A program made the translations under genes and the position numbers. A model generated the notes under the pieces. The model was not told the DNA's origin. It saw nothing but the letters and a program-made list of their open reading frames with translations, and did no database searches. DNA of 51,860 nt from NCBI GenBank assembly GCA_023129235.1, contig JAGMCN010000046.1, positions 1 to 51,860 on the forward strand. The letters run 5' to 3'. Of this stretch, positions 37,406 to 51,860 are shown one piece after another. Every line of letters begins with the position of its first letter. Position 1 is the stretch's first letter. Origin of the DNA: a candidate division WOR-3 bacterium. GTDB lineage: Bacteria; Hydrothermota; UBA3073; JACQXS01.

Positions 37406-38193
37406 AGTCTATCTTTCATATTATCCAAACAGGAATAACAGGAAAAGCTGGTGATTTTAAAAGAACTAGATTTGGAAAACCTTGGGTTAAAGAACGAATA
37501 GAGTTATTCAAGAAGTATAATCTTAATAGTCTATTAAATCAGGAGGATCGAAATTTTATTCACTGGATATCTTGGTGTGAAGCAGATCAGGAAAATGAAG
37601 ACGTAATTAAATTAGGTCAACATCTTAAAAAAATAGAATATCCTTATGTGTTCACTTTTAAAAGACTTCCTTATATTGATACTCATGGAAATAATAGAGA
37701 TCTAAAAGAACGAAGGGAGAGAATGTTACCGCTTATTAAGAAATTCTATAAAGATCAGGCTTATGTATATTTTACTGTATTAGATTCAGACGATCTATAT
37801 AGAAAAGATGCTATTAAGATAATTAAACAGACAGACCCGAATGATAAGAAAGCTATGTTTTTCCAGATAGGATATGGTTATAATTTTGATTCTAAAGACC
37901 TTTGTATATGGGTAGCAAAATGGAGCCCACCTTTCTTTACCTTTATTTTTCCTTCAGAAACTTTCTGGGATGTTGATAAACATAGCGAATGGATTAGACA
38001 TTATCATGTACATCATGATGTAGATCGGATTTTTAAAGGAGTAAAATTACCTAGAGACATGTTTATTCAAGGAATTCATGGAGGTAATGCTACGACTCGT
38101 TGGACAAATGCTTACCGACAACGTATTATTATAGATGAAGATCAAAAAGCCGGGATCTTAAAGGATTTCGGAATTCATTATGCCAAAGAATAA
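37402..38193 (+). CDS. GT-A fold glycosyltransferase (GT2 / rhamnosyltransferase-like)
   Basis: DxD motif in FTVLDSDDLYRKDAI. N-terminal RFGKPWVKERIELFKKYNLNSLLNQEDRNFIHWI resembles the R..LF..y.LPSl..Qt...F.w block of the GT2-related family. Confidence 0.5.
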   Translation: MKSIFHIIQTGITGKAGDFKRTRFGKPWVKERIELFKKYNLNSLLNQEDRNFIHWISWCEADQENEDVIKLGQHLKKIEYPYVFTFKRLPYIDTHGNNRDLKERRERMLPLIKKFYKDQAYVYFTVLDSDDLYRKDAIKIIKQTDPNDKKAMFFQIGYGYNFDSKDLCIWVAKWSPPFFTFIFPSETFWDVDKHSEWIRHYHVHHDVDRIFKGVKLPRDMFIQGIHGGNATTRWTNAYRQRIIIDEDQKAGILKDFGIHYAKE

Positions 38194-39100: not shown

Positions 39101-39867
39101 TTCAAGATTTTAAACAAAAGAAGCTAGTTGAATATTTAAAAGATGGCCAAAAGGTTTTAATTAGATTTGGTCATGGACTAGGTGATACAATTCTGTTTAT
39201 GCCTATCTTTGAAAAACTTAAATCATTATATCCAACGGTTCATTTCGATTTATATATTGAATCAGGTCAGGAAGAGATTTGGTCGTCAATTAAAAACAAA
39301 GATGCACCAGGATATGACTTAGTATTTTCACTTAACTTTCCAATGTCAGAAGGTGGAATACATACAAAACCTGAGAAGTGTTGTATAGATGAAATAGGAA
39401 TACAGCCGATAACTGATACAGCAAAATTACCTAAAAAAGATTCTCCTATTGTAGCTGTTCATTTTCAAGGCACAGCTTTACCAGGATCAGTTAGCTGTCC
39501 AGCTTTAATTGCTTATCAAATTTGGGAAGAAATTAAAGATTGCAATAAAATTCCAGTAGAGACTCATTATCAACATGTCTTTCATAATCCAGCCAATAGA
39601 AAATATAGCTTTATAAATGTAACTGCAAGAGATCTTAAGGCTAGTTTATCCAGCTTATTTGGTTTAATCCAGCATTCATGTGCTTTCATAGGGATTGCGT
39701 CAGGGCCTTTTGTAGTAGCACTCGCTTCAATTCCGGATAGGACTTTGTATTTAGAGAAGGCACATAAGCTTAAAACTTATTCTACAAAACAAATAGCGAC
39801 AGTCGATATTAATAATTATCAAAGCGGAGGAGTAAAAAAATGGCTTCAAAGTTTGCCTGGATCATAG
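39097..39867 (+). CDS. second GT9 heptosyltransferase-like protein (short)
   Basis: VLIRFGHGLGDTILFMPIFEKLKSLYPTVHFDLYI and SLFGLIQHSCAFIGIASGPFVVALAS match the GT9 N- and C-terminal signature blocks. Confidence 0.5.
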   Translation: MIQDFKQKKLVEYLKDGQKVLIRFGHGLGDTILFMPIFEKLKSLYPTVHFDLYIESGQEEIWSSIKNKDAPGYDLVFSLNFPMSEGGIHTKPEKCCIDEIGIQPITDTAKLPKKDSPIVAVHFQGTALPGSVSCPALIAYQIWEEIKDCNKIPVETHYQHVFHNPANRKYSFINVTARDLKASLSSLFGLIQHSCAFIGIASGPFVVALASIPDRTLYLEKAHKLKTYSTKQIATVDINNYQSGGVKKWLQSLPGS

Positions 39868-40766
39868 CAGGCTCTTCAAATTATATACCAGGAATAACAG
39901 CGTTTATGAATAGCGCTCGGGCTTTAGGACATAAGGAAGATATTATCTTACTTTCCTTTAGGTTGCCAGATGAGTTTCTTAAAGAAGTTCAAGAAAAGAT
40001 TGGAAATGTAAGGATAGTTAATATTCAGGGAGAAGATCAGGTAAGAGGAACTGCAATTGAAAGGTTTAGAGTAGCAGTAGAAATGGGAAAAGAATATAAA
40101 GCAATTTGTCTTTTAGATGCTGATATGTTTTTAACTGCTAACTGTGATTTATTTTTTAGAATTGCAGAGGCTGGCTTTATAGTCACTGGGTCAAATGGAA
40201 TGATTATTAATTTTAACAAAGCTTATCAGAAACAATATAATTGTTTTCTTGAGAAAGATGAATGGCCTTATCCAAAAGTTCATACATCAGCACCGATCTT
40301 TTTAGGACCTAAACATTTAGATTGGTTTGAACGTTTATATAATAGTAGACGGATTGATAGTTGGGATGACTTTCTCTATTTAAATCTATTAGGAATTAAG
40401 ATGGGTAAGTATAAAGATATGATTGTTTTACCTCCTTATGTCTTTACAGGAATCCATCATTTTGGAGTGAAGCCAGTTACGGGTTGGATGAATAAAAACG
40501 GAATGATTTTATCCCGGACAGAAGAAGTAATTTATATAGCACATGGTAAGTTCTGGGATAAAGGATGGTATACAGGATTAATGGAGCCTATGGAAAGATA
40601 TTATAAGGATGAACAGCTTGGTAAGAGACAGAAGGAAAGAGGATTATACTCAAGAAAAGTAATGATGGACTGTTTCTTAGAATACTTTAATGGTCCTTAT
40701 TTAAAAGGAGATCCAGAGCCTCTAGACTGGTATTTTAAAAAGAATAAAAAAAATGGCAAATCATAG
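39840..40766 (+). CDS. GT8-like nucleotide-diphospho-sugar transferase (paralog B)
   Basis: FAWIIAGSSNYIPGITAFMNSA... and DxD in ICLLDADMFLTAN. Same block order as the 38180 product. Confidence 0.45.
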   Translation: MASKFAWIIAGSSNYIPGITAFMNSARALGHKEDIILLSFRLPDEFLKEVQEKIGNVRIVNIQGEDQVRGTAIERFRVAVEMGKEYKAICLLDADMFLTANCDLFFRIAEAGFIVTGSNGMIINFNKAYQKQYNCFLEKDEWPYPKVHTSAPIFLGPKHLDWFERLYNSRRIDSWDDFLYLNLLGIKMGKYKDMIVLPPYVFTGIHHFGVKPVTGWMNKNGMILSRTEEVIYIAHGKFWDKGWYTGLMEPMERYYKDEQLGKRQKERGLYSRKVMMDCFLEYFNGPYLKGDPEPLDWYFKKNKKNGKS

Positions 40767-41874
40767 AGATCGACCGGTAGGTTATCAATACTTTAAAATT
40801 CTTAAGGATCATCTTGGATCCTTAGATAAAATATTTAATGGAAAGCTAATTTATCCACGGCAGATTGAAATTCATCTACCGGCAGATCATAAGAAATCTT
40901 GTAATTTTAATTGTTATTATTGCCAGGGTAGAATACTCAAACAACCTCTTGTCCCTTGGGAATTAGATGCATTAGATTTGATACGTGAGTTATCAGGAAA
41001 GATTCCGTATTATATCTACGGAGGTGCTTATTCTGAACCAATGCTAAATCCTTACATGATGACTTTCTTACATGTAACGAAACGTTATGGAGCAAATTTT
41101 GGTATCCATACGAATGGCTCATATCTTAAAATTCTAGAAAAAGCACAGGGCTGGATTACAGAACTATGTCGTATAGCTACAGACAAAAGAGATTATCTTT
41201 CAATCAGTTTAGATGCTGGAAATGTAGAAAGCCATAAGAAAACGAAAGGTCTTAGGAAGAATTGGTATGATGAAATTATTCAAGGAATTAGAATGGCTAT
41301 TAAAATTCGAGGGAATAAAGATTATCCTGCTATTCGGGTCTGTTATTTAATGAATGAATTTAATTCTTCTTTAGAGGAGATTAAAAATATTGTTGAATTA
41401 ATGAGAGATATTAAAGTGGATTCCTTAAGATTTTCTATTCCATACGATTTATATGGTAAAGATTTTAAGATAGTTAAACAATATAAAGAAAGAGTAGAAA
41501 TGAAAAGAAAAGATTCCTATCAAGAAAGATTAAAACCCTATCTCTCTTTAGACCTTAAAGAAAAGCCTTATATCTTTTTCATATCCCCGGAATCACAAGA
41601 TGTTGAAAAGATGTGTTTCAAACAATGTATATATAACTATTATCAGATTACGATAGGCGCCGATGGTAATATTTATCGTTGTTCAAGCACTGCTACTCCT
41701 TCTTTCCCAGCAAATTGCTTAGGAAAATTTACTGGGGATGTTGAGGAATTTCAAGAAATGATTCTTAGGAATCATAATAAAGATTGGAAACCAGAAACAT
41801 GTTTTAAAGCTGGGGCAAGATGTAATCGAATGGCTCTGGAAATTAATAAAGAATGGGAAAAAATTAATGAATAA
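40753..41874 (+). CDS. radical SAM enzyme with Cys-rich C-terminal (twitch/SPASM-like) region
   Basis: CxxxCxxC = CNFNCYYC (C50/C54/C57, nt 40900..40923). C-terminal CIYNYYQITIGADGNIYRC fits the Cx9-15Gx4C half-motif of SPASM/twitch domains. Further Cys lie in CLGKF...CFKAGARC. Confidence 0.7.
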   Translation: MANHRDRPVGYQYFKILKDHLGSLDKIFNGKLIYPRQIEIHLPADHKKSCNFNCYYCQGRILKQPLVPWELDALDLIRELSGKIPYYIYGGAYSEPMLNPYMMTFLHVTKRYGANFGIHTNGSYLKILEKAQGWITELCRIATDKRDYLSISLDAGNVESHKKTKGLRKNWYDEIIQGIRMAIKIRGNKDYPAIRVCYLMNEFNSSLEEIKNIVELMRDIKVDSLRFSIPYDLYGKDFKIVKQYKERVEMKRKDSYQERLKPYLSLDLKEKPYIFFISPESQDVEKMCFKQCIYNYYQITIGADGNIYRCSSTATPSFPANCLGKFTGDVEEFQEMILRNHNKDWKPETCFKAGARCNRMALEINKEWEKINE

Positions 41875-42754
41875 AATTACAATAGCTCAAATAGGATGTG
41901 GTTATTGGGGAAAGAGATTACTCCGCTATATTATAGAGAGTGATAAGTTTAATGTTAAATATGTTTGTACTAAAGGAGATGATCTGACTCAAATTTGGAA
42001 TGATAAGGAAGTAAAAGCAGTTGTGATCGCTACTCCAATTAAAACTCATTTTGCTATTGCAAGAAAAGCTATAAGAGCAAATAAAGATATCTTGTGTGAG
42101 AAACCTCTATGTCAACAATTAAACCAAGTTAGATGTCTTCAGCGTCAATTAACTCGTGCAGATAGAAAACTATTAACAGAATGGACATATACTTTTTCAA
42201 AAGGTTTGATAAAAGCTAAAGAAATTATAGATATTGGAAAGATAGGGGGACTTGAATCTATAGAAATGTCCTTGAAATATGCAGGTCGTTTTCTAGATTA
42301 TAATGTATATTGGCTTTTAGGATCACATCTCTTATCTATTCTTGATATGTTTGTTCCAATAGCTAGTTTAGAGTTTCGAAAAATAGATCTTATAAGACAT
42401 GGAAAACGAACAGAGACTGGAATGATTAGATTTTGGAATGAAAAATTAAAAGGGAATATTACAGTCAGTCTTAATTATCCATTAAAGGATATGAGTGTAA
42501 TTTTCTATGGATCAAGAGGAACCCTGGTATTTTCATCAATGAGAGAACCGACGATTCAATATAATTGTTATGTAAAAGACGAAGGAGTTTTAGGAGATCA
42601 ACTTATAACGGAAGAAAAATTCATGTCTTTTGATGAGAAGAATAATTTAAAGCATGCTGTAAATTATTTTTATGATTTTCTACAAGGAAAAGCAGAAGGC
42701 AATCTCGAGAGATCATTTCAAATAACTAAAGTTTTAAGTCAAATACATGAATGA
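41867..42754 (+). CDS. Gfo/Idh/MocA-family NAD(P)-dependent sugar oxidoreductase
   Basis: ITIAQIGCGYWGKR (Rossmann fold) and the family-diagnostic EKPL motif (ILCEKPLC). Confidence 0.65.
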   Translation: MNKITIAQIGCGYWGKRLLRYIIESDKFNVKYVCTKGDDLTQIWNDKEVKAVVIATPIKTHFAIARKAIRANKDILCEKPLCQQLNQVRCLQRQLTRADRKLLTEWTYTFSKGLIKAKEIIDIGKIGGLESIEMSLKYAGRFLDYNVYWLLGSHLLSILDMFVPIASLEFRKIDLIRHGKRTETGMIRFWNEKLKGNITVSLNYPLKDMSVIFYGSRGTLVFSSMREPTIQYNCYVKDEGVLGDQLITEEKFMSFDEKNNLKHAVNYFYDFLQGKAEGNLERSFQITKVLSQIHE

Positions 42755-43343
42755 TAATCATCTTCAAGAGACTATTAGATTAGCAAATGCAGTAGGAGAT
42801 CCTAAACATGCTGTAACTGCTAATGAAGGAATCTTCTTATATAATAGAGCAAAGGAATGTTCAAAAGGAGTTATAGTAGAAATAGGTTCTTGGAAAGGAA
42901 GATCAGCAGTTTGGTTGGGTAGAGGTTCTCAAGCTGGATTTAAAAGAGAAGTTTATGCTGTAGATCCTCACACTGGTTCTCCAGAACATCATAGACTTTA
43001 TGGTAAGATATGGACTCTTCCAGTCTTTCAAAAGAATATTGAAAGAGCTGGGCTTTCAAATATAGTAGTCTCTTTAGTAAAGACTTCTGAAGAAGCTTCT
43101 AAAGATTGGAAAGAACCTATTGAGTTATTATTTATAGACGGCCGTCATGATTATAAATATGTAAAACAAGATTATGATTTGTGGAGTCGATTCTTAATTC
43201 CAGGTGGAATAGTAGTTTTCCATGATTCTATTAGATGGCCAGGTCCTAAATTAGTAGTTGATGAAGTAATATATAAGACTAGAGATTTTATGAAGGTAGG
43301 TATTATTAATTCAATAACCTGGGCTGTGAAAAAAAAGACTTGA
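42747..43343 (+). CDS. class I SAM-dependent methyltransferase (Methyltransf_24 / sugar O-methyltransferase-like)
   Basis: VVEIGSWKGRSAVWLG (motif I), LLFIDGRHDY and VVFHD are typical of the CmcI/TylF-like O-methyltransferase group. Confidence 0.6.
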   Translation: MNDNHLQETIRLANAVGDPKHAVTANEGIFLYNRAKECSKGVIVEIGSWKGRSAVWLGRGSQAGFKREVYAVDPHTGSPEHHRLYGKIWTLPVFQKNIERAGLSNIVVSLVKTSEEASKDWKEPIELLFIDGRHDYKYVKQDYDLWSRFLIPGGIVVFHDSIRWPGPKLVVDEVIYKTRDFMKVGIINSITWAVKKKT

Positions 43344-43889: not shown

Positions 43890-43890
43890 T

Positions 43891-44319: not shown

Positions 44320-47300
44320 ATGTTTGAACATATATTAAAAAAATTAGAATCATGGAAGCCAATACATCTGTGTTGGTGGTTTGAGAAACACGGAAAGCCT
44401 ATTCCTAAATATTTTATTGGACAGTCTTCCTCGAGTTCTTCATCTTCTTCTTCTTTTTCAAGCTCCTCTTCCTTTTCAACAGGGGCTTGGCTTGATGGAT
44501 GGAGATATCGAATTAAGATAACTATCCCAGACAACCGAAAAGAAGCAGATTTATCTTATTTTCCAGTAACTATATTTTTAAACGATAATGCTGGAATAAA
44601 CAGTGATGATGTCACCGCTATTTTTGATGAGGTGGGAAGTTCTTCTCAAAAAATTGCTCTTACTAAAGCTGATGGAACAACTCAGCTTTACTGTGAGGTA
44701 GAAAGCTGGAATAGTGGAACTGAAAAAGCTGTAATCCATGTTAGTAAATCAGATTGGAATTTAATTGATAGTTGCGATACGGTTTTTTATTTATATTTTG
44801 ATAATAGACAAGCAGATAATACGACTTATATAGGCGATGATCCAGATGATGCCGCGACTCATGCCGTATGGAATAGTGGTTATAAATTTGTTTCTCACAT
44901 GAAGGATTCTGGATCCTCTGCAATTAAGGATTCTACAGATAATAATAATGATGGGACAAAGAAAGCGGCAAACCAACCTAATCAAGTTGCTGGTAAAATA
45001 GCTAGAGCTCAAGATTTTGATCTTGCGAATGAGGAATATATAGATATGGATTCAACCACCGCACCAATGACAGGATTATTAGTAGAGGGCTGGATAAATC
45101 CTGAGAGTGATGGATCGGCTATGACTATAGCTGCAGATATGTATGATACGGCTGCATGGGCAGATTGTTCCTGGTACGTAATGAGAAATACAGATGATAA
45201 AATTTTTACTATTTCTTATAAAGCTGGTGGAGCCTTATGGAGTCTCGTATCAACTACTGCAATTACGGCTGCAGATGGTTGGAAACATAGTGCTGTAAGA
45301 TGGAATGGAAGTAATGTTTATATTTATTTAAACGGAGTTCAGGATGAAACTGCAGTTGCTTCAGGAGTGATGAGTGCTCATGCTTCAAGAGAATTTACGA
45401 TAGGAAGACAAAAAGATGCTGCTACTTATAAACAATATTATGATGGAATAATAGATGAATTTAGAGTTTCAAATACTGGAAGAAGTGCAGCTTGGGTAAA
45501 AGCTTCTTACTATGAAGGAGCAGATGACTTTGTTTATTTTTCTGCTGCGGAGGGAAATCCTTCATCATCATCATCTTCAAGTTCTTCACAAGAATCTATT
45601 TCTTCTTGCTCATCTTCATTTAGTTCTAGCAGTTCTAGCAGTTCTTCTTCAAGTAAATCTTCTTCTTCATCACTTAGTGCTGTTTGTGGAACTGGACTTT
45701 ATGAAAAACAACAAGATCGAAGTGTTTTACTAGCTAGTCTGTATGGAGTAAATTGGTTATGTCAAACTTTTACTCCTCAAGAAGCTCATTTAATTAAATG
45801 TGTAAGACTTGTTTTTGACAGAGTCGGGGCGGGTGATTTTACGATTACAGCTAGTATTAAAGCAGTAGATGGTAATCATAAACCAACAGGACCAGTTTTA
45901 TGTAGTGGAACGATGAGCACTGATGATATATCTGGAAATGATTGGTATACGATTAATTTAGGAAATGGAACTAATTTATCAGCAGCTACTGAGTATGCAA
46001 TTGAATTTAAATGCCCGGATGCTGATAATGATAATCGCCCAAGAGCATATGGAAGAGATTCTGATGTTTATGCAGGAGGAAAATGTTTTGTATCTCCAGA
46101 TAGCGGAGGAACATGGAATATTCAAACCTGGGATTTTGCCTTTGAGGATTGGGGTCAGGAAACTTCCTCAAGTAGTTCTTCTAGTTGCTCTAGTTCTTTT
46201 AGTTCATCTAGCTCATGTTCTTGTTCTTCATCAGCGAGTTGTGTTCATGATACCCAGCATGATAATTGTGTTTTAGATGACAATGATGTCATATCAATAG
46301 CTGACACTAAATGGTTAGCACAATCGTTTACTCCATCAATTTCCTATCATATTTGTCGCGTAAAAGTTAAACTTGAAAAAAATGGAACACCGCCAACTAC
46401 CACTACTTTTGGCATTCGGAACACAGATGGTAATGGTCATCCAACTGGAGCTGATTTATGTTCAGGGGTCTTAGGACCTGGGCCTGCAGCTGGATGGATA
46501 GAGATTATTTTAGGAGCTGGTTATGATCTTATTCAAGGTACAAAATATGCAGTAGTTGGAAGAGCTCCGTCTGGAGTAGGTGGTGATTGTTGGCGATGGA
46601 GATTTGATAATACAGCCGGAAGTTATACCAGAGGAAATGCACTGGATTCAGATGATTCGGGAGGAACCTGGGGTGACTTAGCTCAGGGTGATGAAGATTG
46701 GATGTTTGATTTATATGGAGATACTGGATCTTCATCTTCATCAAGTTCGAATTCAAGTTGTTCTAGTTCTTTTAGTAGTTCTTCTAGTAATAGTTCATTT
46801 AGTTCTAGTTCATGCTCAAGCAGTTTTTCATCTAGTTCATCTTCTAGTTCATCTTTTAGCAGTAGCTCTTGTTCTTCTAGTTTTTCTTCCTCTAGTTGCT
46901 CGAGCTCATTTAGCAGTAGTAGTTCATGTTCTAGTAGCTTTAGTTTCTCAAGTTGCTCTTCTTCATTTAGTAGTAGCTCTTGTAGTTCATCATTTAGTTC
47001 CAGTAGCAGTTCTTTTAGTTCATCTTCAAGCTGTAGCTCATCCTTTAGTAGCAGCTCATGTTCAAGCAGTTTTTGTTCTTCTAGTAGCTCATTAAGTTTT
47101 TCATCAAGTTGTTCTTGTAGCTCATCTTTTAGCTCTAGCTCTTCCAGCTTTAGCTCTTCTAGTTGCTCAAGCTCTTTCTCTTCTAGCTCCTGTAGCAGTA
47201 GCTTCAGTAGCTCAAGCTCAAGTTTTAGTAGTTCTTCTTCTTCAAGCTTTAGTTCTAGTAGTAGTAGCTTCTCATCTAGTTCAAGTTTCAGTTCTAGCTC

Positions 47301-48930
47301 CTCAAGTTTCTCTTCTTCTAGTAGCTGTTTAAGTTCTTCTTCAAGCTCCTGTTCATCATCGTTTAGCTCATCCTCAAGCTGTAGTAGTTTTAGCAGTTCA
47401 TCCTGTAGCTCGTCTTTCAGTAGCTCTTCATGTAGTAGTTCATTTAGTTCTTCAAGTTCTTCAAGTTCATTTTCTTCTAGCTCCTACAGTAGTTGTAGTA
47501 GTTCTAGTAGTCTTAGTCTTTCATCCTCATCAAGTTCAAGTTGCTCATCATCTTTTAGCTCTTCTAGTTGTAGTTCCTCATTTAGTAGTAGCTCAAGCTC
47601 AAACTCTTTCAGTAGCAGCAGTTCAAGTTCATCTTTTAGCTCAAGCTCAAGTAGCTTTTCAAATTCAAGTAGCGAATCAAATAGTAGTTCAAGTTCATCA
47701 ATAAGTATAAGCTCATCAAGTAGTAGTGAATCAAAGAGCTCATCATCAAGTTCTAAATCAATATCAAGTAGCTCAAGCTCTCAATCAACAAGTATTTCCA
47801 GTTCCTCAAGTTGTTCAAGTTCTTTCAGTTCAAGTTCGGAATCAATTTCGACTTCAAGTAGTTCATCATCACAATCAATTTCCTCCAGTAGCAGTTCTGA
47901 ATCAACAAGTTTAAGCTCTAGTAGCTCAAGCCAAAGTTTAAGCAGTTCTAGTTCTTCGGAAAGTATTTCAACTTCAATTTCTTCTAGTAGTAGCTCGTTT
48001 AGCTTTAGCTCAAGCTCGAGTAGCTTTAGTTCTAGTTCAAGCTCCTCAAGTTTAAGTTCAAGCTCAAGTTCTGAAAGTACTTCATTAAGTAGCAGTTCTG
48101 AATCAATTTCAAGTTCTTCATCTTCTGAGAGCATTTCATCAAGTTCTAGTTCATCTTATAGTTCAGAGTCCATGAGCTTAAGTAGCTCTTCGGAATCCCA
48201 AAGCTCATCAAGCTCATCTGAATCTATAAGCTGTAGTTCATCAAGCGAATCGATATCAAATAGTTCAAGTTCTCAATCGATAAGTAATTCTAGTTCATCT
48301 AGTAGTTCTAGTTCTTTAAGCTCAAGCTCAGAATCAACCTCGATCTCTAGTAGTTCTTGTTCATCATCAATCTCATCTAGTAGTAACTCAGAGTCACTAA
48401 GTTCTAGTTCTAGTAGTCAAAGTGAGAGCTTCAGCAGTAGCTGTTCTTCAAGCTGTAGTTCAGAATCAATAAGTAAAAGTAGCTCCTCTAGCAGTTCCGA
48501 ATCCGAAAGCTTAAGTAGCTCTTCGAGTAGTTCTCAGTCAATTTCAAGTTGCTCTAGTAGTTCAGGATATCCTACTTCATGGTGCATAGCTTGGGGAGAA
48601 CAGAACCCAGGAGCGGGTCATACTCCCGAGGGATGGTCAACTTGGTCAGATGGAACAGGTGGAAATCCCACCATTTTAGGAGATCCAGATTGGGGACAAT
48701 TACAGTTAGTATTAAATGAAGTTGCTAATAGTCCAATACATCATTTTGGATCTTTAAATTCGTCGGTCACTGTAGTTTCAAATATTAATGTAGGATCTGT
48801 AGAAGTTTATTATCGTCAGTCAGCCACGGCATTTGGACAGGATGATTTGGCTCCAGCTTGGGTATTAAAAATTACAGGGACTATTCATTTAAATCAATCT
48901 TATCGGCAGATAAGATTAAAAGGAGCATAA
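44320..48930 (+). CDS. fibre/adhesin-like protein 1: N-terminal anchor, DUF2341-like and LamG (concanavalin-like lectin) domains, two ~155-aa beta modules, 612-aa Ser-rich tract, C-terminal domain
   Basis: DGWRYRIKITIPDN...LSYFPVTIFLND...FYLYFDN fits the DUF2341 pattern. KDSTDNNNDGT...LLVEGWINPE...WKHSAVRWNGSNVYIYLNG...YDGIIDEFRVSN fits LamG/Laminin_G_3. Ser linkers lie at about 44425..44480, 45560..45680 and 46161..46239. Confidence 0.8.
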   Translation: MFEHILKKLESWKPIHLCWWFEKHGKPIPKYFIGQSSSSSSSSSSFSSSSSFSTGAWLDGWRYRIKITIPDNRKEADLSYFPVTIFLNDNAGINSDDVTAIFDEVGSSSQKIALTKADGTTQLYCEVESWNSGTEKAVIHVSKSDWNLIDSCDTVFYLYFDNRQADNTTYIGDDPDDAATHAVWNSGYKFVSHMKDSGSSAIKDSTDNNNDGTKKAANQPNQVAGKIARAQDFDLANEEYIDMDSTTAPMTGLLVEGWINPESDGSAMTIAADMYDTAAWADCSWYVMRNTDDKIFTISYKAGGALWSLVSTTAITAADGWKHSAVRWNGSNVYIYLNGVQDETAVASGVMSAHASREFTIGRQKDAATYKQYYDGIIDEFRVSNTGRSAAWVKASYYEGADDFVYFSAAEGNPSSSSSSSSSQESISSCSSSFSSSSSSSSSSSKSSSSSLSAVCGTGLYEKQQDRSVLLASLYGVNWLCQTFTPQEAHLIKCVRLVFDRVGAGDFTITASIKAVDGNHKPTGPVLCSGTMSTDDISGNDWYTINLGNGTNLSAATEYAIEFKCPDADNDNRPRAYGRDSDVYAGGKCFVSPDSGGTWNIQTWDFAFEDWGQETSSSSSSSCSSSFSSSSSCSCSSSASCVHDTQHDNCVLDDNDVISIADTKWLAQSFTPSISYHICRVKVKLEKNGTPPTTTTFGIRNTDGNGHPTGADLCSGVLGPGPAAGWIEIILGAGYDLIQGTKYAVVGRAPSGVGGDCWRWRFDNTAGSYTRGNALDSDDSGGTWGDLAQGDEDWMFDLYGDTGSSSSSSSNSSCSSSFSSSSSNSSFSSSSCSSSFSSSSSSSSSFSSSSCSSSFSSSSCSSSFSSSSSCSSSFSFSSCSSSFSSSSCSSSFSSSSSSFSSSSSCSSSFSSSSCSSSFCSSSSSLSFSSSCSCSSSFSSSSSSFSSSSCSSSFSSSSCSSSFSSSSSSFSSSSSSSFSSSSSSFSSSSSFSSSSSSFSSSSSCLSSSSSSCSSSFSSSSSCSSFSSSSCSSSFSSSSCSSSFSSSSSSSSFSSSSYSSCSSSSSLSLSSSSSSSCSSSFSSSSCSSSFSSSSSSNSFSSSSSSSSFSSSSSSFSNSSSESNSSSSSSISISSSSSSESKSSSSSSKSISSSSSSQSTSISSSSSCSSSFSSSSESISTSSSSSSQSISSSSSSESTSLSSSSSSQSLSSSSSSESISTSISSSSSSFSFSSSSSSFSSSSSSSSLSSSSSSESTSLSSSSESISSSSSSESISSSSSSSYSSESMSLSSSSESQSSSSSSESISCSSSSESISNSSSSQSISNSSSSSSSSSLSSSSESTSISSSSCSSSISSSSNSESLSSSSSSQSESFSSSCSSSCSSESISKSSSSSSSESESLSSSSSSSQSISSCSSSSGYPTSWCIAWGEQNPGAGHTPEGWSTWSDGTGGNPTILGDPDWGQLQLVLNEVANSPIHHFGSLNSSVTVVSNINVGSVEVYYRQSATAFGQDDLAPAWVLKITGTIHLNQSYRQIRLKGA
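45685..46160 (+). repeat. fibre module copy A1 (~155 aa; ..W.CQTFTP....H...CVRL...R.G.G.FTIT.SIKAVDGNH.PTG..LCSG..)
   Basis: Aligns along its full length with 49063..49541 in the second fibre gene. Confidence 0.7.
46240..46722 (+). repeat. fibre module copy B1 (CVHDTQHDNC...WLAQSFTPS...IRNTDGNGHPTG...DLYGD)
   Basis: Aligns with 51378..51860 in the second fibre gene. The last 132 nt are identical. Confidence 0.8.
46591..46722 (+). repeat. 132-nt exact direct repeat, copy 1
   Basis: Identical by eye to 51729..51860. One T/C mismatch lies immediately upstream (46590 vs 51728). Further upstream the two copies are clearly diverged. Confidence 0.85.
46729..48564 (+). repeat. 612-codon serine-dominated low-complexity tract
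   Basis: In frame within fibre 1. The first ~310 codons use almost only S/C/F (SSCSSSFSSSS-type periodicity). After about nt 47660 the pattern switches to S/E/I/Q/T/L (SSSSSESISSSSSSQSTS type). Ser codons alternate between AGY and TCN. Confidence 0.9.
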
Positions 48931-48932
48931 AT

Positions 48933-51860
48933 ATGTTAGACAGATTTAGAAAATTTATAAGAGAGTGGAAACCAATACATCTCTGTTGGTGGTACCAAAA
49001 GAAGGGAAAGCAAATCCCAAGGTATTTTATTGGACAGTCTAGCTCATCTTCTTCAAGCGGTCCTTGTGGAGGAGCTACTCTTTATGAACATCAGAATACA
49101 GTTTGGAATGAAGTACTATCTAGCATTTGGGGATCTGCTTGGTGCTGTCAGACCTTCACTCCTTCGATAGCTCATACTGTTACTTGTGTAAGATTAGCTC
49201 TTGATAGAATAGGAATCGGTAATTTTACTATCACAGTTAGCATTAAAGCAGTGGATGGAAATCATCATCCGACTGGAGTTGCCTTATGTTCCGGAACTAT
49301 ATCTACAAATAATTTAGGAGACCAATGGGATGAAATTTCAATGGGAGCAGGGGCTAACTTATCTGCTTCTACCGAATATGCAATCGAAGTTAAATGCCCA
49401 GATGCTACTGATGGTAATCAAGCGAGAGGATATGGAGATTCAACAGGAGACTACGCTGGTGGTTATGGCCAGTGGTCAAATGATAGCGGTGATACATGGA
49501 ATGATACAGTTTGGGATTATGCTTTTGAAGAGTATGGTGATACGTCTTCGAGTTCAAGTTCATGTTCATCTTCTTTTTCTTCAAGTTCTTCCAGCTTTAG
49601 TAGTTCTTCTAGCTCAGAATCTAGTCAAAGTAGCAGTTCAAGTTCCGAACAGTGTTTTGATTATACAAAATTTGAAAATCATACGACGCCTGATAATTCT
49701 AACTTTACCATTGGAGGTAATATTCAAATTGCACAAACATTTACACCTTCAATAAGTCATGTAATAAACTGTGTAAATGTAAAGATTGGAACCGAAGGAA
49801 CTCCGGTTGGAAATTTAGATGTTCAGATTCAAGATACTGATGGAGCTGGTAAACCAAATGGGAATGTTTTAGCTTCTGCTTCTATTACTGTAGCTAGTAT
49901 AGTAGCACATGAGTGGCGAGGAATAGTTTTAAATAGCGGAAGTTTTTTATCAGCAGCTTCTAAATATGCATTAGTTTTGAAAGCACCAAATATGCCTGGA
50001 CAAATAGGAGATAGGGTGTTTTGGAAATCAGATAGTACAGAAGGTTATGCTGCAGGTCAAGCCTGTTTTACTAATGATGCAGGAGCCAATTGGGCTCTGG
50101 AATCTAGAGATTGTCTTTTTGAAGAATGGGGAAATCAGAGTTCTTCAAGTTCTTCAAGTTCTAGTTCAATCCTTAGTTGTTCATCTTCTTCATCTTCAGG
50201 AAGTTTTTCAAGCAGTTCATCATCGTCGGCAGTTCCTTGTCCTATTGATTGTGAACTTTGCTATGATTGTTACTTTGTTACAGTTCCCGAGTTCATTTGT
50301 GATTTTAATACATGTGGGGGTCAGGCTATTTTAGAAAGAAGCGGAAATTGTGAATGGGAAGATTTAGACGGAGGCGATCTTGGAAATATGATGGTCTTTC
50401 TATATTGTTCGGAAGGCTTTTGGATTTTAGAAATATGTTGTGACAGTATAATAAACACTTGTATTTATAAAAAGGCTCTAGTAGAAGAAGGGGAATGCCC
50501 CGAAGGTTGGTATGAATTTGATCTGGATGCTTCGAATTGTGGAGCAAATTGTCCAGCAGGTCCATTGCAATTAACAGGTGATGAATGTCCATCCTCTAGT
50601 TCAAGCTGTTCAAGTTTAAGCTACTCAAGCTCCAGTTCATGTAGTTCGTCATATTCATGGAGCTCGACATCTTCAAGTTTTTCTAGCTCTTCGAGTAGTC
50701 TGAGCAGCAGTAGTTCCTGCTCAAGTAGTATTAGTTCTAGCAGTTCTTCATCAGGTTGTATTTCATGTTCTTCATCTTCTTCAGCATCCTGTTGGACTTG
50801 TCCTTCAGTAGGTGCTTGTGAAGCTCAATGTAGCCCATGTTATAGTTTCGACTACCCTTTATCTTGGTGTGATGGAAATTATATTGGTGGAAATATAATT
50901 TTAGATAATCGTTATATAGGTTTTTGTTCTTGGTATGCTTGGGGAAAAGGAACTTATTGGAACACAGATGCAAGTATTATTTGTAATGCGAACTGGTGGA
51001 CTTTAACAGTTTCTCCAAGTATAAATCCAGATGCCAACTGTATTTATAAAAAATGTTGTGATGAAGAAGATGATTGCCCAGATGGAATTTATGCTTTAGA
51101 TCCTTGGCTTTCAACTTGTCCGGAAGGCTGCCCAAGTCAAACTATTGAAGTGAGTGAATCTTCATGTTTTTCCTCAAGCTCGAGTAGTAGTTCTTGTAGT
51201 TCTTCTTCCTATAGCTCGTCCAGCTCTTTTTCTAGCAGTTCTAATTCATCTTGTTCTTCATCTTCATACTCTAGTTCAAGCAGTCTCAGCCTGAGTAGCT
51301 CAAGCTCAATTTCACTTAGTAACAGTTTATCTAGTTCTAGTAGTGTTTCTTTCTCGTCTTCTAGCTCTTCGATAAGTTGTGTTTATGATACTCAACAGGA
51401 TCATTGTATTTTAGATGATAACGATGTGATTTCTATAGCAGGAACAAAATGGCTAGCTCAATCTTTTACACCGTCTGTTTCTTATAGAGTTTGTAGAGTA
51501 AAAGTAAAAGTTGATAAGAATGGAACTCCTCCAGCGGTTACTACTTTCGGAATTCGAAATACGGATGGGAATGGTCATCCTATAGGATCTGATTTATGTT
51601 CAGGAATTTTAGGTCCTGGACATGCAGCAGGCTGGATAGAAATTATTTTAGGCGCAGGCTATAGTCTTTCTCAAGATATAAAATATGCTTTAGTAGCTCG
51701 AGCTCCAAGTACAGATAGCGGTGATTGCTGGCGATGGAGATTTGATAATACAGCCGGAAGTTATACCAGAGGAAATGCACTGGATTCAGATGATTCGGGA
51801 GGAACCTGGGGTGACTTAGCTCAGGGTGATGAAGATTGGATGTTTGATTTATATGGAGAT
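48933..51860 (+). CDS. fibre/adhesin-like protein 2 (3'-partial; absent from the supplied ORF track)
   Basis: I translated ATG 48933 codon by codon to nt 51860: 976 codons with no stop. AGGAG lies 7 nt upstream. The N-terminus MLDRFRKFIREWKPIHLCWWYQKKGKQIPRYFIGQSSSSSSS is paralogous to the fibre 1 N-terminus. It contains three beta modules, Ser linkers and two Cys-rich modules. Confidence 0.85.
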   Translation, partial: MLDRFRKFIREWKPIHLCWWYQKKGKQIPRYFIGQSSSSSSSGPCGGATLYEHQNTVWNEVLSSIWGSAWCCQTFTPSIAHTVTCVRLALDRIGIGNFTITVSIKAVDGNHHPTGVALCSGTISTNNLGDQWDEISMGAGANLSASTEYAIEVKCPDATDGNQARGYGDSTGDYAGGYGQWSNDSGDTWNDTVWDYAFEEYGDTSSSSSSCSSSFSSSSSSFSSSSSSESSQSSSSSSEQCFDYTKFENHTTPDNSNFTIGGNIQIAQTFTPSISHVINCVNVKIGTEGTPVGNLDVQIQDTDGAGKPNGNVLASASITVASIVAHEWRGIVLNSGSFLSAASKYALVLKAPNMPGQIGDRVFWKSDSTEGYAAGQACFTNDAGANWALESRDCLFEEWGNQSSSSSSSSSSILSCSSSSSSGSFSSSSSSSAVPCPIDCELCYDCYFVTVPEFICDFNTCGGQAILERSGNCEWEDLDGGDLGNMMVFLYCSEGFWILEICCDSIINTCIYKKALVEEGECPEGWYEFDLDASNCGANCPAGPLQLTGDECPSSSSSCSSLSYSSSSSCSSSYSWSSTSSSFSSSSSSLSSSSSCSSSISSSSSSSGCISCSSSSSASCWTCPSVGACEAQCSPCYSFDYPLSWCDGNYIGGNIILDNRYIGFCSWYAWGKGTYWNTDASIICNANWWTLTVSPSINPDANCIYKKCCDEEDDCPDGIYALDPWLSTCPEGCPSQTIEVSESSCFSSSSSSSSCSSSSYSSSSSFSSSSNSSCSSSSYSSSSSLSLSSSSSISLSNSLSSSSSVSFSSSSSSISCVYDTQQDHCILDDNDVISIAGTKWLAQSFTPSVSYRVCRVKVKVDKNGTPPAVTTFGIRNTDGNGHPIGSDLCSGILGPGHAAGWIEIILGAGYSLSQDIKYALVARAPSTDSGDCWRWRFDNTAGSYTRGNALDSDDSGGTWGDLAQGDEDWMFDLYGD
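49063..49541 (+). repeat. fibre module copy A2
   Basis: ..AWCCQTFTPSIAHTVTCVRLALDRIGIGNFTITVSIKAVDGNHHPTGVALCSG...WDYAFEEYGD parallels copy A1. Confidence 0.7.
49653..50138 (+). repeat. fibre module copy B-variant
   Basis: CFDYTKFENH...IQIAQTFTPSISHVINCVNVKIG...IQDTDGAGKPNG...CLFEEWGNQ has the same block order as the A and B modules but is more diverged. Confidence 0.6.
50235..50591 (+). repeat. Cys-rich module copy 1 (~119 aa)
   Basis: PCPIDCELCYDC...CDFNTCGG...NCEWED...YCSEGFWILEICCDSIINTCIYKKALVEEGECPEGWYEFD...NCGANCPAGP...DECP. Confidence 0.65.
50790..51167 (+). repeat. Cys-rich module copy 2 (~126 aa)
   Basis: CWTCPSVGACEAQCSPCYSFD...WCDG...FCSWYAWG...IICNANWWTL...ANCIYKKCCDEEDDCPDGIYALD...TCPEGCPSQ...SSC. 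It shares the CIYKK...E..CP.G.Y..D...C..CP backbone with copy 1. Confidence 0.65.
51378..51860 (+). repeat. fibre module copy B2 (runs to the window edge)
   Basis: CVYDTQQDHCILDDNDVISIAGTKWLAQSFTPSVSYRVCRVKVKV...IRNTDGNGHPIG...DLYGD. Positions 51729..51860 are identical to 46591..46722. Confidence 0.8.

What the first reader, a model, noticed from the sequence alone, without database searches (positions are those of the whole stretch)
46729..48564. 612-residue serine tract with two sharply different regimes, resembling serine-rich-repeat adhesins
About 1.8 kb encodes almost pure Ser interrupted by a restricted alphabet. The first half uses only C and F at quasi-regular spacing (SSCSSSFSSSS). 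After about nt 47660 the pattern switches to SES[I/T]S and SQS[I/L/T]S units. The second regime strongly resembles the SR regions of Gram-positive SRRP adhesins, which are O-glycosylation substrates. I do not recognise the periodic-Cys regime from any described protein. Ser codons alternate between the AGY and TCN families, which limits perfect nucleotide repeats. The tract should still be prone to recombinational length variation, and hence fibre-length or phase variation.
Basis: partly seen in the sequence, partly recalled or inferred. Interest (0 to 1): 0.75.

Follow-up and report, generated by a model that had tools for sequence, protein, structure and literature searches.

The report
Giant polyserine stalk in phage fibre protein
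A 612-residue, 77%-serine tract with periodic Cys/Phe is real; it is an extreme serine linker in a modular fibre-like protein of an uncultivated phage, not a Gram-positive SRRP adhesin, and it lies next to a phage-encoded heptose-sugar and glycosyltransferase cassette that may coat it with sugar.

Summary
Nt 46729-48564 encode 612 in-frame residues, 472 of them Ser. A 310-residue S/C/F half (CSSSF 17 times) is followed by a 302-residue S/E/Q/I/L/T half. Both halves share a 9-residue period.

The tract sits in a 1536-aa ORF (44320-48930) of a phage contig that was binned as a WOR-3 bacterium. The architecture is a conserved N-terminal motif, DUF2341-like plus LamG, two beta-sandwich modules that resemble phage baseplate and tail proteins, the tract, and a 121-aa C-terminal domain. 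Shorter linkers of the same kind join all domains here and in the downstream paralog.

It is not an SRRP: it has no signal peptide, no LPXTG, no aSec genes and no GtfA/B.

Similar S/C/F tracts (16-313 aa) occur in at least four other phage lineages. In each they lie beside the same cassette: a GT9-like heptosyltransferase with a TibC/WaaF fold, GT8-like enzymes and a methyltransferase, often with ADP-heptose synthesis genes. I infer a flexible spacer, probably O-glycosylated.

The DNA has no exact repeat longer than 19 nt, so slippage-driven phase variation is unlikely.

Caveat: the contig ends inside a 132-nt exact repeat that abuts the tract, so which paralog carries the tract needs long reads.

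The parts
44320..48930 (+). ORF1, 1536 aa: modular fibre-like virion protein that contains the tract
   Evidence: Single open frame. The identical product is called on the ENA scaffold. It has no signal peptide and no LPXTG.
44320..44424 (+). N-terminal 35-aa motif (..WKPIHLCWWFEKHGKPIPKYFIGQ) shared with the downstream paralog. Inferred to be the attachment or adaptor end.
   Evidence: Translations. 78% nt identity between 44353-44442 and 48966-49055. The attachment function is an inference.
44425..44478 (+). Short Ser linker 1 (SSSSSSSSSSFSSSSSFS)
44479..45558 (+). DUF2341-like region plus LamG (Laminin_G_3, aa 246-393 = nt 45055-45498)
   Evidence: Pfam PF13385, E 6.8e-18. Homologues carry PF10102 + PF13385. 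36% identity to a hypothetical protein of Methanoculleus virus Blf4/L4768.
45559..45672 (+). Ser linker 2 (38 aa, contains SSCSSSFSSSS)
45673..46167 (+). X1: beta-sandwich module of about 165 aa
   Evidence: Five copies align across ORF1 and the paralog (A2). AF2 model pLDDT 87. Best fold matches are phi812 baseplate proteins, a PBCV-1 capsid protein, a cyanophage A4 capsid protein, the Bxb1 tail tip and CBMs. BFVD matches are phage tail and virion-associated proteins. phrog_5986, E 7e-9.
46168..46230 (+). Ser linker 3 (SSSSSSSSCSSSFSSSSSCSCSSS)
46231..46728 (+). X2: second beta-sandwich module
   Evidence: Alignment A2. 81% nt identity to the last domain of the paralog.
46591..46722 (+). 132-nt exact repeat shared with the contig end (51729-51860), immediately before the tract. 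It marks an assembly-graph branch point and a likely gene-conversion tract.
   Evidence: It is the only exact repeat of 40 nt or more in the window. The flanking X2/Xc sequence is only about 75% identical.
46729..47658 (+). Ser tract, regime 1: 310 aa of S/F/C, CSSSF 17 times, 9-residue period
47659..48564 (+). Ser tract, regime 2: 302 aa of S with E/Q-S-I/L/T units, 9-residue period
48565..48930 (+). C-terminal 121-aa non-repetitive domain (fold and function unknown) plus stop codon
   Evidence: In frame after the tract. No hit in PHROGs, Pfam, PDB sequences or IMG/VR.
48933..51860 (+). Downstream paralog (at least 976 aa, runs off the contig). Same N-terminal motif, three X modules and two Cys-rich modules, all joined by S/C/F linkers. 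It stops where its own long tract would begin.
   Evidence: It equals NCBI MCK4307126.1, labelled 'partial'.
32026..35346 (+). Nucleotide-heptose activation genes: methyltransferase fused to an HldE-type adenylyltransferase domain, an HldE-type heptose-7-P kinase domain, a cupin, and an HldD-type ADP-heptose 6-epimerase
   Evidence: PHROGs, Pfam. NCBIfam TIGR02199 E 1e-47, TIGR02198 E 2e-46, TIGR02197 E 3e-62, all below the equivalog cut-offs.
35684..36721 (+). GT9-like heptosyltransferase (GT-B fold). Candidate priming enzyme for the Ser tracts.
   Evidence: More than 350 homologues at 60-77% identity, some named ADP-heptose:LPS heptosyltransferase or carrying PF01075. AF2 pLDDT 87. Foldseek top hits are WaaF, GT9 entry 3tov and TibC, E about 1e-10, with TibC giving the best TM of 0.62. 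The role on the tract is inferred.
37402..40766 (+). Further glycosyltransferase-like ORFs: 37402-38193 (weak Rhamno_transf), 38180-39100 (GT8), 39097-39867 (unknown, conserved), 39840-40766 (GT8-like paralog)
   Evidence: Pfam. tblastn shows conservation next to Ser tracts in L008/L009, L010, L011 and L012.
40753..43343 (+). Radical SAM enzyme, GFO/IDH/MocA oxidoreductase and Methyltransf_24: probable sugar-tailoring genes, lineage-specific
   Evidence: Among the related loci, only the oxidoreductase (41867-42754) has a match, a weak one (27% identity, E about 2e-10) in L008/L009; the rSAM has none and the methyltransferase gave no tblastn hit.

Best explanation
The tract is an extreme version (612 aa) of a clade-specific polyserine interdomain linker. 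It lies in a cytoplasmically made, virion-exposed, beads-on-a-string fibre or decoration protein of an uncultivated tailed phage.

Proposed mechanism:
- The conserved N-terminal motif, shared by two adjacent paralogs, docks the protein on the particle.
- LamG and beta-sandwich modules, which have a carbohydrate-binding-type fold, are strung on short S/C/F linkers.
- The long tract acts as an extended, disordered, hydrophilic stalk that holds the small C-terminal domain up to tens of nm away.

The tract is most likely O-glycosylated on Ser in the infected cell. The candidate machinery is the phage's own cassette just upstream: ADP-heptose synthesis genes, a GT9-like heptosyltransferase and GT8-like extenders. 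Glycosylation would turn the tract into a stiff, protease-resistant, mucin-like glyco-stalk. The fixed CSSSF / 9-residue register is under selection and probably serves as an enzyme-recognition or spacing element.

Shown: the sequence features, the domain folds, the gene neighbourhood and its conservation.

Inferred: virion location, spacer function, glycosylation, and the role of Cys and Phe.
For: (1) The tract is coding. It is in frame between two non-repetitive domains, with 612 codons and no stop, and it is identical in two assemblies.

(2) It has linker character. The same S/C/F sequence, at 16-71 aa, joins every pair of globular domains in ORF1 and in the paralog. It does the same in P0195, where six domains are joined, and in P0073 and P0074.

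(3) The context is a phage virion. The major head protein is phrog_9953. There are tail-fibre-like hits, and all genes lie on one strand. The X module folds like phage baseplate, tail and capsid-accessory domains. There is no signal peptide, so the protein is made in the cytoplasm.

(4) A glycosylation cassette lies upstream: HldE- and HldD-type genes, a GT9 fold with TibC among the top hits, and GT8.

(5) The cassette co-occurs with Ser tracts. GT9-like, w39097, GT8-like genes and Methyltransf_23 lie within a few kb of S/C/F or Ser tracts in L008/L009, L010, L011 and L012. In L008/L009 the Methyltransf_23 homologue is part of the heptose-activation block about 4.5 kb upstream of the GT9-like gene, not next to the GT genes. 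In L010 and L008 the Ser-tract gene directly abuts the cassette. L007, which has no tract within +/-10 kb, lacks w39097 and w39840.

(6) The composition is selected. F+C excess has p about 1e-35, and Thr, Pro, Ala and Gly are virtually absent across 7 loci. TibC/AAH modify Ser and not Thr (PMC4358343).
Against: - There is no direct evidence of expression, virion incorporation or glycosylation.
- The GT9-like enzyme cannot be told apart from LPS heptosyltransferases by fold. WaaF and 3tov have equal E-values, and TM differences may only reflect GT-B domain opening. A sequence profile finds no PDB GT9 at all.
- The cassette also occurs next to capsid genes in a phage (L007) with no Ser tract in view. 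Its target could therefore be another virion protein, host LPS or capsule, or even DNA.
- Co-occurrence across related phages may reflect shared ancestry and not function. The sample is six lineages.
- The C-terminal domain is uncharacterised, so the polarity of the fibre is a guess.
- The X2-to-tract junction lies at the edge of a repeat where the assemblies break.
Confidence: 0.55

Rival explanations
1. The tract is an unmodified entropic tether. It would be a plain flexible polyserine linker, as in bacterial carbohydrate-active enzymes, simply much longer. The neighbouring sugar cassette would act on something else, such as host LPS or capsule remodelling, other virion proteins, or DNA.
For: Polyserine linkers between modules are well established without any need for glycosylation; PSLs of 25-58 residues occur in S. 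degradans (PMC2386152). The GT9 fold equals that of the LPS heptosyltransferases WaaF and WaaC. L007 has the cassette core beside capsid genes with no tract in view.
Against: A pure spacer does not explain the strict CSSSF register, the exclusion of Thr/Pro/Ala/Gly, or the repeated physical adjacency of Ser-tract genes to the GT cassette in four other lineages despite rearrangement. From my own knowledge, not tested here: 600 residues of bare polyserine would be expected to be prone to aggregation and proteolysis.
Confidence: 0.25
2. The tract is a cross-linked or metal-binding fibre. The periodic Cys, with Phe four residues away, would form disulfide, thioether (radical-SAM, sactionine-like) or metal bridges within or between chains. 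The result would be a covalently reinforced silk-like stalk, not a glyco-stalk.
For: Cys is the dominant interrupter in all lineages, with up to 156 Cys in 1076 tract residues in L012. A radical SAM gene lies at 40753-41874. Its nearest NCBIfam hits are rSAM/SPASM-type maturases, and it carries a C-terminal Cys cluster. The paralog also carries Cys-rich modules.
Against: The rSAM gene is found only in this lineage and in none of the other Ser-tract loci. Its family hits cover only the rSAM core, far below the cut-offs. It sits among sugar-tailoring genes. Regime 2 has few Cys. The source bins and samples appear to be from anoxic settings (my own knowledge of these lineages, not tested here), and disulfides are not favoured there.
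Confidence: 0.1
3. The protein is an SRRP-like bacterial adhesin: a cell-wall-anchored, aSec-exported, GtfA/B-glycosylated serine-rich repeat protein.
For: Regime 2 contains SxSxS units (SESIS, SQSIS) that recall SRR dipeptide repeats. Glycosyltransferase genes are linked, including GT8, a family I recall from SRRP loci; this is my own knowledge and was not tested here.
Against: There is no signal peptide or KxYKxGKxW motif, no LPXTG, no SecA2/SecY2/Asp and no GtfA/B (criteria from PMC6973325). The gene sits in a phage contig with a major head protein. The longest strict (S-X)n run is 8-9 residues.
Confidence: 0.02
4. The tract is an assembly artefact: a low-complexity mis-assembly or a chimeric join, not a real contiguous gene.
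For: Both available assemblies stop inside a 132-nt exact repeat that directly abuts the tract. Other assemblies of the same population fragment near 44 kb. Only short-read assemblies exist.
Against: No k-mer of 21 nt or more is repeated inside the tract, so it is not intrinsically ambiguous for a de Bruijn assembler. Two assemblies, seemingly with different k (55-nt against 132-nt terminal overlap), give the identical 4611-nt ORF. The frame is open across 612 codons and continues into a non-repetitive domain. Comparable tracts of up to 313 aa occur in unrelated samples. Because the 132 nt are identical in both paralogs, the frame into the tract is the same whichever copy it belongs to.
Confidence: 0.06

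Closest known systems
Polyserine linkers (PSLs) of modular carbohydrate-active enzymes in Saccharophagus degradans, Cellvibrio japonicus and Teredinibacter (Howard et al. 2004, cited in PMC2386152)
   Same: Runs of nearly pure Ser separate independently folded modules, several of which are of carbohydrate-binding type. Several linkers occur per protein. All Ser codon families are mixed.
   Different: Known PSLs run to tens of residues, for example PSL(58) and PSL(25), lie in secreted bacterial enzymes, and I know of no fixed Cys/Phe register in them. Here the tract is 612 residues with a CSSSF / 9-residue periodicity, in a phage structural-type protein with no catalytic module, and it is linked to a glycosyltransferase cassette.
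Serine-rich repeat glycoproteins (SRRPs: GspB, Fap1, PsrP, SRRP of L. reuteri)
   Same: A very long Ser-rich region forms a stalk that displays a binding module. There is local SxSxS sequence. GT genes are linked in the locus, and glycosylation occurs in the cytoplasm before assembly or export. This is a similarity of proposed mechanism.
   Different: There is no aSec export, signal peptide or AST domain, LPXTG or GtfA/B. Poly-S runs dominate, not strict dipeptide repeats. The S/C/F regime has no SRRP counterpart. The element is viral, not a Gram-positive cell-wall protein.
BAHT system: TibC/AAH O-heptosylation of the autotransporter adhesins TibA, AIDA-I and Ag43 (PMC4358343)
   Same: A GT9-fold heptosyltransferase is encoded beside its protein substrate. 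The donor is ADP-heptose, modification is Ser-specific and occurs many times per substrate, and it takes place in the cytoplasm. The phage enzyme's best TM-score is to TibC. It has four conserved C-terminal Cys, which recall the TibC iron finger.
   Different: The acceptor here is a disordered polyserine tract, not a 19-residue-repeat beta-helix. The Cys spacing differs from TibC Cys339/342/358/370. No N-terminal beta-barrel or dodecamer was tested. Additional GT8-like enzymes suggest a longer glycan. The phage encodes its own heptose activation genes.
Mycobacteriophage virion glycosylation (Freeman et al. 2023, Cell Host Microbe, cited in PMC12582341; not readable here)
   Same: Phage-encoded glycosyltransferases next to structural genes are proposed to decorate virion surface proteins.
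   Different: From my own knowledge, the mycobacteriophage acceptors are short C-terminal extensions of capsid and tail-tube subunits, and the GTs are of other families. Here the acceptor would be a dedicated 600-residue tract in a fibre protein, with a heptose pathway.

Membership tests
SRRP (Gram-positive serine-rich repeat adhesins) | Long atypical N-terminal signal peptide (KxYKxGKxW) plus AST domain | tested here: not met
   No motif was found. The maximum Kyte-Doolittle 19-residue hydrophobicity in the first 100 aa is 0.45. Criterion from PMC6973325.
SRRP (Gram-positive serine-rich repeat adhesins) | C-terminal LPXTG cell-wall anchor | tested here: not met
   A regex search for LP.[TSA]G finds nothing in the 1536 aa.
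SRRP (Gram-positive serine-rich repeat adhesins) | Linked accessory Sec locus (SecA2, SecY2, Asp1-3) and priming GtfA/GtfB | tested here: not met
   PHROGs, Pfam and NCBIfam scans of the window ORFs show no Sec or Asp proteins and no GT4/DUF1975. They show phage head and tail genes and GT9-like and GT8 genes. Only 51.9 kb was examined.
SRRP (Gram-positive serine-rich repeat adhesins) | SRR1 - binding region - long SRR2 architecture built of S-X dipeptide-type repeats | tested here: not met
   There are four Ser linkers between five or six modules. The longest strict (S-X)n run is 8-9 residues, and poly-S runs of 3-9 dominate.
Polyserine linker (PSL) | Run of nearly pure Ser that connects independently folded modules of one polypeptide | tested here: met
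   Ser-rich segments flank LamG, X1, X2 and the C-terminal domain. The same holds in the paralog and in P0195.
Polyserine linker (PSL) | Host protein is a secreted modular carbohydrate-active enzyme, with linker length in the tens of residues | tested here: not met
   No catalytic domain and no signal peptide were found, and the context is a phage. The length is 612 aa against 25-58 aa in the cited examples.
BAHT-type protein O-heptosylation system | GT9-fold heptosyltransferase encoded next to the acceptor gene | tested here: met
   ORF 35684-36721: AF2 pLDDT 87, with Foldseek hits to WaaF, 3tov and TibC at E about 1e-10. It lies 8.6 kb upstream here and directly adjacent to the Ser-tract gene in L010.
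BAHT-type protein O-heptosylation system | ADP-heptose donor available | tested here: met
   HldE kinase-like, HldE adenylyltransferase-like and HldD-like ORFs are present, with E-values of 1e-46 to 1e-62 but below the equivalog cut-offs. Which nucleotide and which heptose isomer are used is not established.
BAHT-type protein O-heptosylation system | BAHT-specific modules: N-terminal beta-barrel, beta-hairpin thumb, 4-Cys iron finger, dodecamer | tested here: inconclusive
   Four (nearly) invariant Cys (C275, C281, C290, C300) lie in the C-lobe, but their spacing differs from TibC. The model starts with helices and a Rossmann-like strand, not a beta-barrel. The oligomeric state cannot be tested.
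BAHT-type protein O-heptosylation system | Acceptor is the repeat beta-helix passenger of a self-associating autotransporter | tested here: not met
   No autotransporter domain was found in Pfam. The acceptor candidate is a low-complexity tract.
BAHT-type protein O-heptosylation system | Heptose demonstrably attached to Ser | not testable with these tools
   This needs mass spectrometry or glycan staining.
Phage tail fibre / baseplate-associated modular protein | Domains with folds of known virion baseplate, tail or decoration proteins, encoded in the late or structural region | tested here: met
   X module against phi812 baseplate chains (E 3e-7, TMq 0.68), the Bxb1 tail tip, and BFVD tail and virion-associated proteins. 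The major head protein and tail-fibre-like ORFs lie upstream on the same strand.
Phage tail fibre / baseplate-associated modular protein | Physical presence in the virion | not testable with these tools
   The phage is uncultivated. This needs virion proteomics or cryo-EM.

The most novel reading that the evidence does not exclude
A widespread clade of uncultivated phages, with genomes of roughly 90-140 kb, would encode a complete protein O-glycosylation system. The system would comprise nucleotide-heptose synthesis, a TibC-like GT9 priming enzyme, and GT8-like extenders with methyl and other tailoring. Its dedicated substrates would be Ser/Cys/Phe nonapeptide tracts that serve as every interdomain linker of the phages' fibre proteins.

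The 612-residue tract would then be a virus-built mucin: a heptose-based glyco-stalk. CSSSF would be the acceptor or spacing code, and Cys might be S-glycosylated or cross-linked. This would be the first viral protein-heptosylation system and a new class of glycosylation sequon.
Probability: 0.3. Interest if true: 0.8.

Novelty: new variant of a known kind. Interest (0 to 1): 0.6.

Why it matters
If the link to the cassette is real, phage virion glycosylation extends beyond the one well-documented case I know of (mycobacteriophages). It would then include a large environmental phage clade that uses a heptose-based, TibC-like mechanism and a simple, recognisable acceptor sequence (S/C/F nonapeptides).

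That would give a testable sequon and enzyme pair for glyco-engineering. It would also offer an explanation for how phages build long, protease-resistant spacers without collagen-like or coiled-coil repeats.

There is an annotation lesson as well. Gene callers and composition filters routinely skip these tracts or put them on the wrong strand:
- ORF1 has no NCBI protein in the collection searched here.
- The L008 ORF 16091-18115 was only partly called.
- L012 17726-18442 was called on the opposite strand.

Such proteins are therefore largely invisible in protein databases. HMMER found only 2 true hits among 1.84 billion representatives, while six-frame scans found tracts in 4 of the 5 other lineages examined (5 of 6 counting the window).

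Tried and rejected
- IMG/VR searches with the C-terminal domain and with X1-X2 found no relatives.
- A degenerate DNA pattern for CSSSFSSSSCSSSF worked on the window (6 hits, 0 expected).
- The search for related loci with a synthetic S/C/F peptide gave 600 pattern hits in IMG/VR, but none passed tblastn confirmation, probably because of low-complexity filtering, so they were unusable.
- Protein searches with regime 1 returned very few hits: P0073 and P0074, and P0195 plus one false positive, P0196, a eukaryote-like FSNEKLE repeat protein. I rejected reading this as true rarity after six-frame scans of neighbouring loci found many uncalled tracts.
- Sequence and profile searches of PDB with the GT9-like family, X1, the C-terminal domain, DUF2341-LamG, w39097 and w39840 gave nothing significant.
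- The major head protein has no tblastn match among 50,697 GenBank phages.
- P0001 could not be located by exact look-up.
- The far end of the 94.7-kb ENA scaffold, which might hold the paralog's tract, could not be reached, because look-ups are limited to window proteins.
- The Freeman 2023 and Howard 2004 papers are not held in the library.
- Slipped-strand or tandem-duplication origin: TRF and k-mer analysis show no recent repeats.
- Opposite-strand or other-frame ORFs inside the tract (46688-47095 +, 47781-48134 -): rejected as by-products of Ser codon complements. They give L/V-rich or E/L-rich strings and are not continuous with any domain.
- Radical SAM as a universal partner of the tracts: rejected, because it is absent from the other loci.


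Full report
**1. The observation**

ORF 44320-48930 (+) is a single 1536-codon frame. The reported interval 46729-48564 is exactly in frame (aa 804-1415) and encodes 612 residues, 472 of them Ser (77%).

- Regime 1, the first 310 residues, uses only S, F (33), C (22), L (4), N (3) and Y (1).
- CSSSF occurs 17 times there, against a maximum of 6 in 5000 shuffles. The commonest spacings are C-S3-F (17 times) and F-S4-C (10 times).
- If the interruptions were random one-step mutational neighbours of the Ser codons used, F+C would make up 15.9% of them. They make up 55 of 63 (p about 1e-35).
- Thr, Pro, Ala, Gly and Arg, which are the commonest mutational neighbours, are absent from regime 1.
- Regime 2, the last 302 residues, carries E 18, I 17, L 8, Q 7 and T 6, in units such as SESIS and SQSIS (14 + 5 matches, none in regime 1).
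- The switch near nt 47660 is real but not absolute. Regime 2 still holds 6 C, 5 F and one CSSSF.
- Both regimes share a 9-residue periodicity.

All six Ser codons are used. AGY makes up 47% of Ser codons in the tract, against 27% in the other ORFs. AGY/TCN alternation is only slightly above random.

**2. Is it an artefact?**

- The tract contains no repeated k-mer of 21 nt or more.
- The longest exact repeat is 19 nt, equal to what random synonymous codon assignment yields (19.4 +/- 2.5).
- TRF reports only weak short arrays.
- An ENA scaffold of 94,673 bp from BioSample SAMN18200505 is 100% identical over 17,893 nt, including the full ORF.

The tract is therefore not intrinsically ambiguous for short-read assembly.

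There is one caveat. The last 132 nt of the window (51729-51860) are 100% identical to 46591-46722, the 132 nt immediately before the tract. The preceding 400 nt of these paralogous domains are only about 75% identical. This is the only exact repeat of 40 nt or more in the window. The ENA scaffold ends 55 nt into the same repeat. The assembly graph therefore branches here, and which paralog carries this particular tract is not proven. Because the 132 nt are identical, the reading frame into the tract is the same in either case. The pattern also points to recent gene conversion between the paralogs at the border between domain and tract.

**3. What the protein is**

Pfam finds Laminin_G_3 at aa 246-393. 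Homologues of the N-terminal half carry DUF2341 (PF10102) plus LamG. They are widespread in metagenomes, and one is a hypothetical protein of Methanoculleus virus Blf4. None of the nine retrieved and read has a comparable Ser tract.

Two modules of about 165 aa (X1 and X2) follow, with three more in the downstream paralog. The AF2 model has pLDDT 87 and is a beta-sandwich. Its best PDB matches are:

- baseplate proteins of phage phi812 (E 3e-7, TMq 0.68);
- a PBCV-1 capsid protein;
- a cyanophage A4 capsid protein;
- the Bxb1 tail tip;
- carbohydrate-binding modules.

BFVD matches are phage tail, minor tail and virion-associated proteins. After the tract comes a 121-aa domain with no detectable relatives. 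The N-terminal 35 residues are shared with the paralog that starts at 48933.

Short linkers of the same S/C/F style (16-71 aa) join every pair of modules in both proteins. There is no signal peptide, LPXTG or KxYKxGKxW.

The window is a phage region. It has a major head protein (phrog_9953), tail-fibre-like hits, a 4793-aa ORF, HNH endonucleases, and all genes on one strand. NCBI bins the contig as 'candidate division WOR-3 bacterium'.

**4. The neighbourhood**

Directly upstream, at 32026-43343, lies a sugar cluster:

- a methyltransferase fused to an HldE-type heptose-1-P adenylyltransferase domain;
- an HldE-type heptose-7-P kinase domain;
- a cupin;
- an HldD-type ADP-heptose 6-epimerase;
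- a 345-aa ORF at 35684-36721, described below;
- a weak rhamnosyltransferase-like ORF, a GT8 ORF, a conserved 256-aa ORF and a GT8-like paralog;
- a radical SAM enzyme, a GFO/IDH/MocA oxidoreductase and a methyltransferase.

The 345-aa ORF has more than 350 metagenomic homologues at 60-77% identity. Some of these are named ADP-heptose:LPS heptosyltransferase or carry PF01075. Its AF2 model (pLDDT 87, pTM 0.87) matches GT9 structures only. WaaF (1psw), entry 3tov and TibC (4rb4, 4rap) score E about 1e-10, and WaaC scores about 3e-7. TibC gives the best superposition (TMq 0.62, rmsd 4.4 A). TibC and AAH O-heptosylate Ser, not Thr, in adhesins encoded next to them (PMC4358343).

**5. Comparative evidence**

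Protein-level searches with regime 1 find only P0073, P0074 and P0195. All three are multi-domain proteins whose domains are joined by SSCSSSFSSSS-type linkers. Six-frame scans of loci fetched through the GT9-like homologues show far more:

| Locus | Ser tracts found | Relation to the cassette |
|---|---|---|
| L008/L009 | 197 aa at the scan's >=60%-Ser threshold (Ser-rich region about 250 aa) inside a 674-aa ORF | Immediately after the GT cassette; only partly called by the gene caller |
| L010 | P0195, with six linkers | Directly abuts Methyltransf_23, GT9-like, w39097 homologue, GT8-like, w39840 homologue |
| L011 (93.9 kb) | Four S/C/F tracts of 28-145 aa | Within +/-10 kb of the GT9-like gene |
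| L012 (140 kb) | Seven tracts of 56-313 aa, very Cys-rich | Within +/-10 kb; one tract is overlapped by an opposite-strand gene call |
| L007 | None within +/-10 kb | Has the cassette core but lacks the w39097 and w39840 homologues |

Across seven loci the tracts are 75-82% Ser. Cys and Phe dominate as interrupters, except in L008/L009, where E, F, C and R are about equally common. Thr, Pro, Ala and Gly are almost absent. The globular domains are not conserved between lineages. The radical SAM gene has no counterpart in any other Ser-tract locus; the neighbouring oxidoreductase has only a weak match in L008/L009.

The S/C/F regime is therefore not a one-off. It is the linker style of a phage clade and travels with a GT9-like/GT8-like cassette. 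The window's tract is the longest seen: 612 aa, against 313 aa for the next longest.

**6. Interpretation**

The best-supported reading is an extreme polyserine interdomain spacer in a virion-exposed, beads-on-a-string fibre or decoration protein. It is probably converted into a mucin-like glyco-stalk by the adjacent phage-encoded heptose and GT system.

- The spacer reading rests on sequence and architecture and is fairly secure.
- Virion location is inferred from folds and context.
- Glycosylation is inferred from gene neighbourhood and its conservation, and from the Ser specificity of the nearest structural analogue.
- The role of CSSSF is unknown. It could be an acceptor or spacing code, S-linked glycosylation, or cross-linking.

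The rivals considered are a bare entropic tether, a Cys cross-linked fibre, an SRRP adhesin and an assembly artefact. The SRRP reading fails every defining feature that could be tested here (criteria from PMC6973325).

From my own knowledge, RecA-type exchange needs identical stretches longer than the 19 nt available. Recombination between paralogs at the tract border is evident instead.

**7. Novelty and score**

Polyserine linkers (PMC2386152 and Howard et al. 2004, cited there), Ser-rich glyco-stalks (SRRPs), adjacent-substrate Ser heptosylation (BAHT) and phage virion glycosylation (Freeman 2023, cited in PMC12582341) are each known. Full-text searches for polyserine plus phage, for heptosyltransferase plus bacteriophage, and for serine-rich tail-fibre glycosylation found no description of S/C/F tracts or of phage heptose-GT cassettes linked to Ser-rich fibre proteins. 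That library is incomplete.

I rate this a new variant of a known kind, with interest 0.6. The strongest unexcluded reading is a viral protein-heptosylation system with an S/C/F sequon. I give it a probability of about 0.3 and an interest of 0.8 if true.

Noticed in passing
window 46591-46722 and 51729-51860: This is the only exact repeat of 40 nt or more in the window: 132 nt, 100% identical between the two paralogs, against about 75% for the preceding 400 nt. The NCBI contig ends at its last base, and the ENA scaffold ends 55 nt into it. It indicates an assembly-graph branch and probable recent gene conversion at the border between domain and tract.
   Followed up: yes
window 48933-51860: The downstream paralog (NCBI MCK4307126.1, 'partial') has the same N-terminal motif, three X modules and S/C/F linkers. 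It also has two Cys-rich modules of about 125 aa (50226-50597 and 50781-51164) with 17-20 Cys each and no database match.
   Followed up: partly
window 8355-22736: A giant 4793-aa ORF lies just after the major head protein gene. The only Pfam hit is an N-terminal LysM domain (aa 15-52). It has an internal diverged repeat (20279-20636 against 20882-21239, 67% identity).
   Followed up: partly
window 32026-35346; L008 7485-9284: The phage encodes HldE-kinase-like, HldE-adenylyltransferase-like (fused to a methyltransferase) and HldD-like genes plus a cupin. The related phages L008/L009 additionally carry a transaldolase and a split transketolase, which would supply sedoheptulose-7-P. This looks like a phage-borne heptose pathway.
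   Followed up: partly
L008 16091-18115; L012 17487-18464; L001 1298-1444; window ORF1: Gene callers mishandle Ser tracts. The 674-aa L008 ORF was called only from 17312. L012 and L001 have opposite-strand gene calls laid over Ser tracts. ORF1 itself has no NCBI protein in the collection. Such proteins are under-represented in protein databases.
   Followed up: partly
window 35684-36721 (alignment A1): The GT9-like family is unusually conserved (60-77% identity across more than 350 metagenomic proteins). It has four (nearly) invariant Cys (C275, C281, C290, C300) in the C-lobe, which recall the TibC iron finger although the spacing differs.
   Followed up: partly
window 40753-41874: A radical SAM enzyme (CX3CX2C at aa 50-57) carries a C-terminal Cys cluster (288, 292, 310, 322, 350, 357). 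Its nearest NCBIfam hits are rSAM/SPASM maturases, far below the cut-offs. It is present only in this lineage.
   Followed up: partly
window 39097-39867 and 39840-40766: These two ORFs have no Pfam hit; the second is a distant GT8-like paralog. Both are conserved at 52-68% identity in every Ser-tract locus (L008/9, L010, L011, L012) and are absent from L007, the one cassette locus with no tract in view.
   Followed up: partly
window 43378-44319: An HNH or LAGLIDADG-like homing endonuclease gene (43378-43806) and a small hydrophobic-N-terminus ORF (43891-44319) lie between the sugar cluster and ORF1. Two other assemblies (Logan, ENA) break near 44.06-44.14 kb.
   Followed up: no
window 29372-30493: This ORF has weak papain-like peptidase C1 hits and a PG_binding_1 domain. 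It may be an endolysin-type cell-wall hydrolase.
   Followed up: no
whole window: The contig is deposited in a MAG labelled candidate division WOR-3 bacterium, but its content is entirely phage-like. Related contigs are binned as Anoxychlamydiales or Deltaproteobacteria. The bin labels are therefore poor evidence of the host.
   Followed up: no
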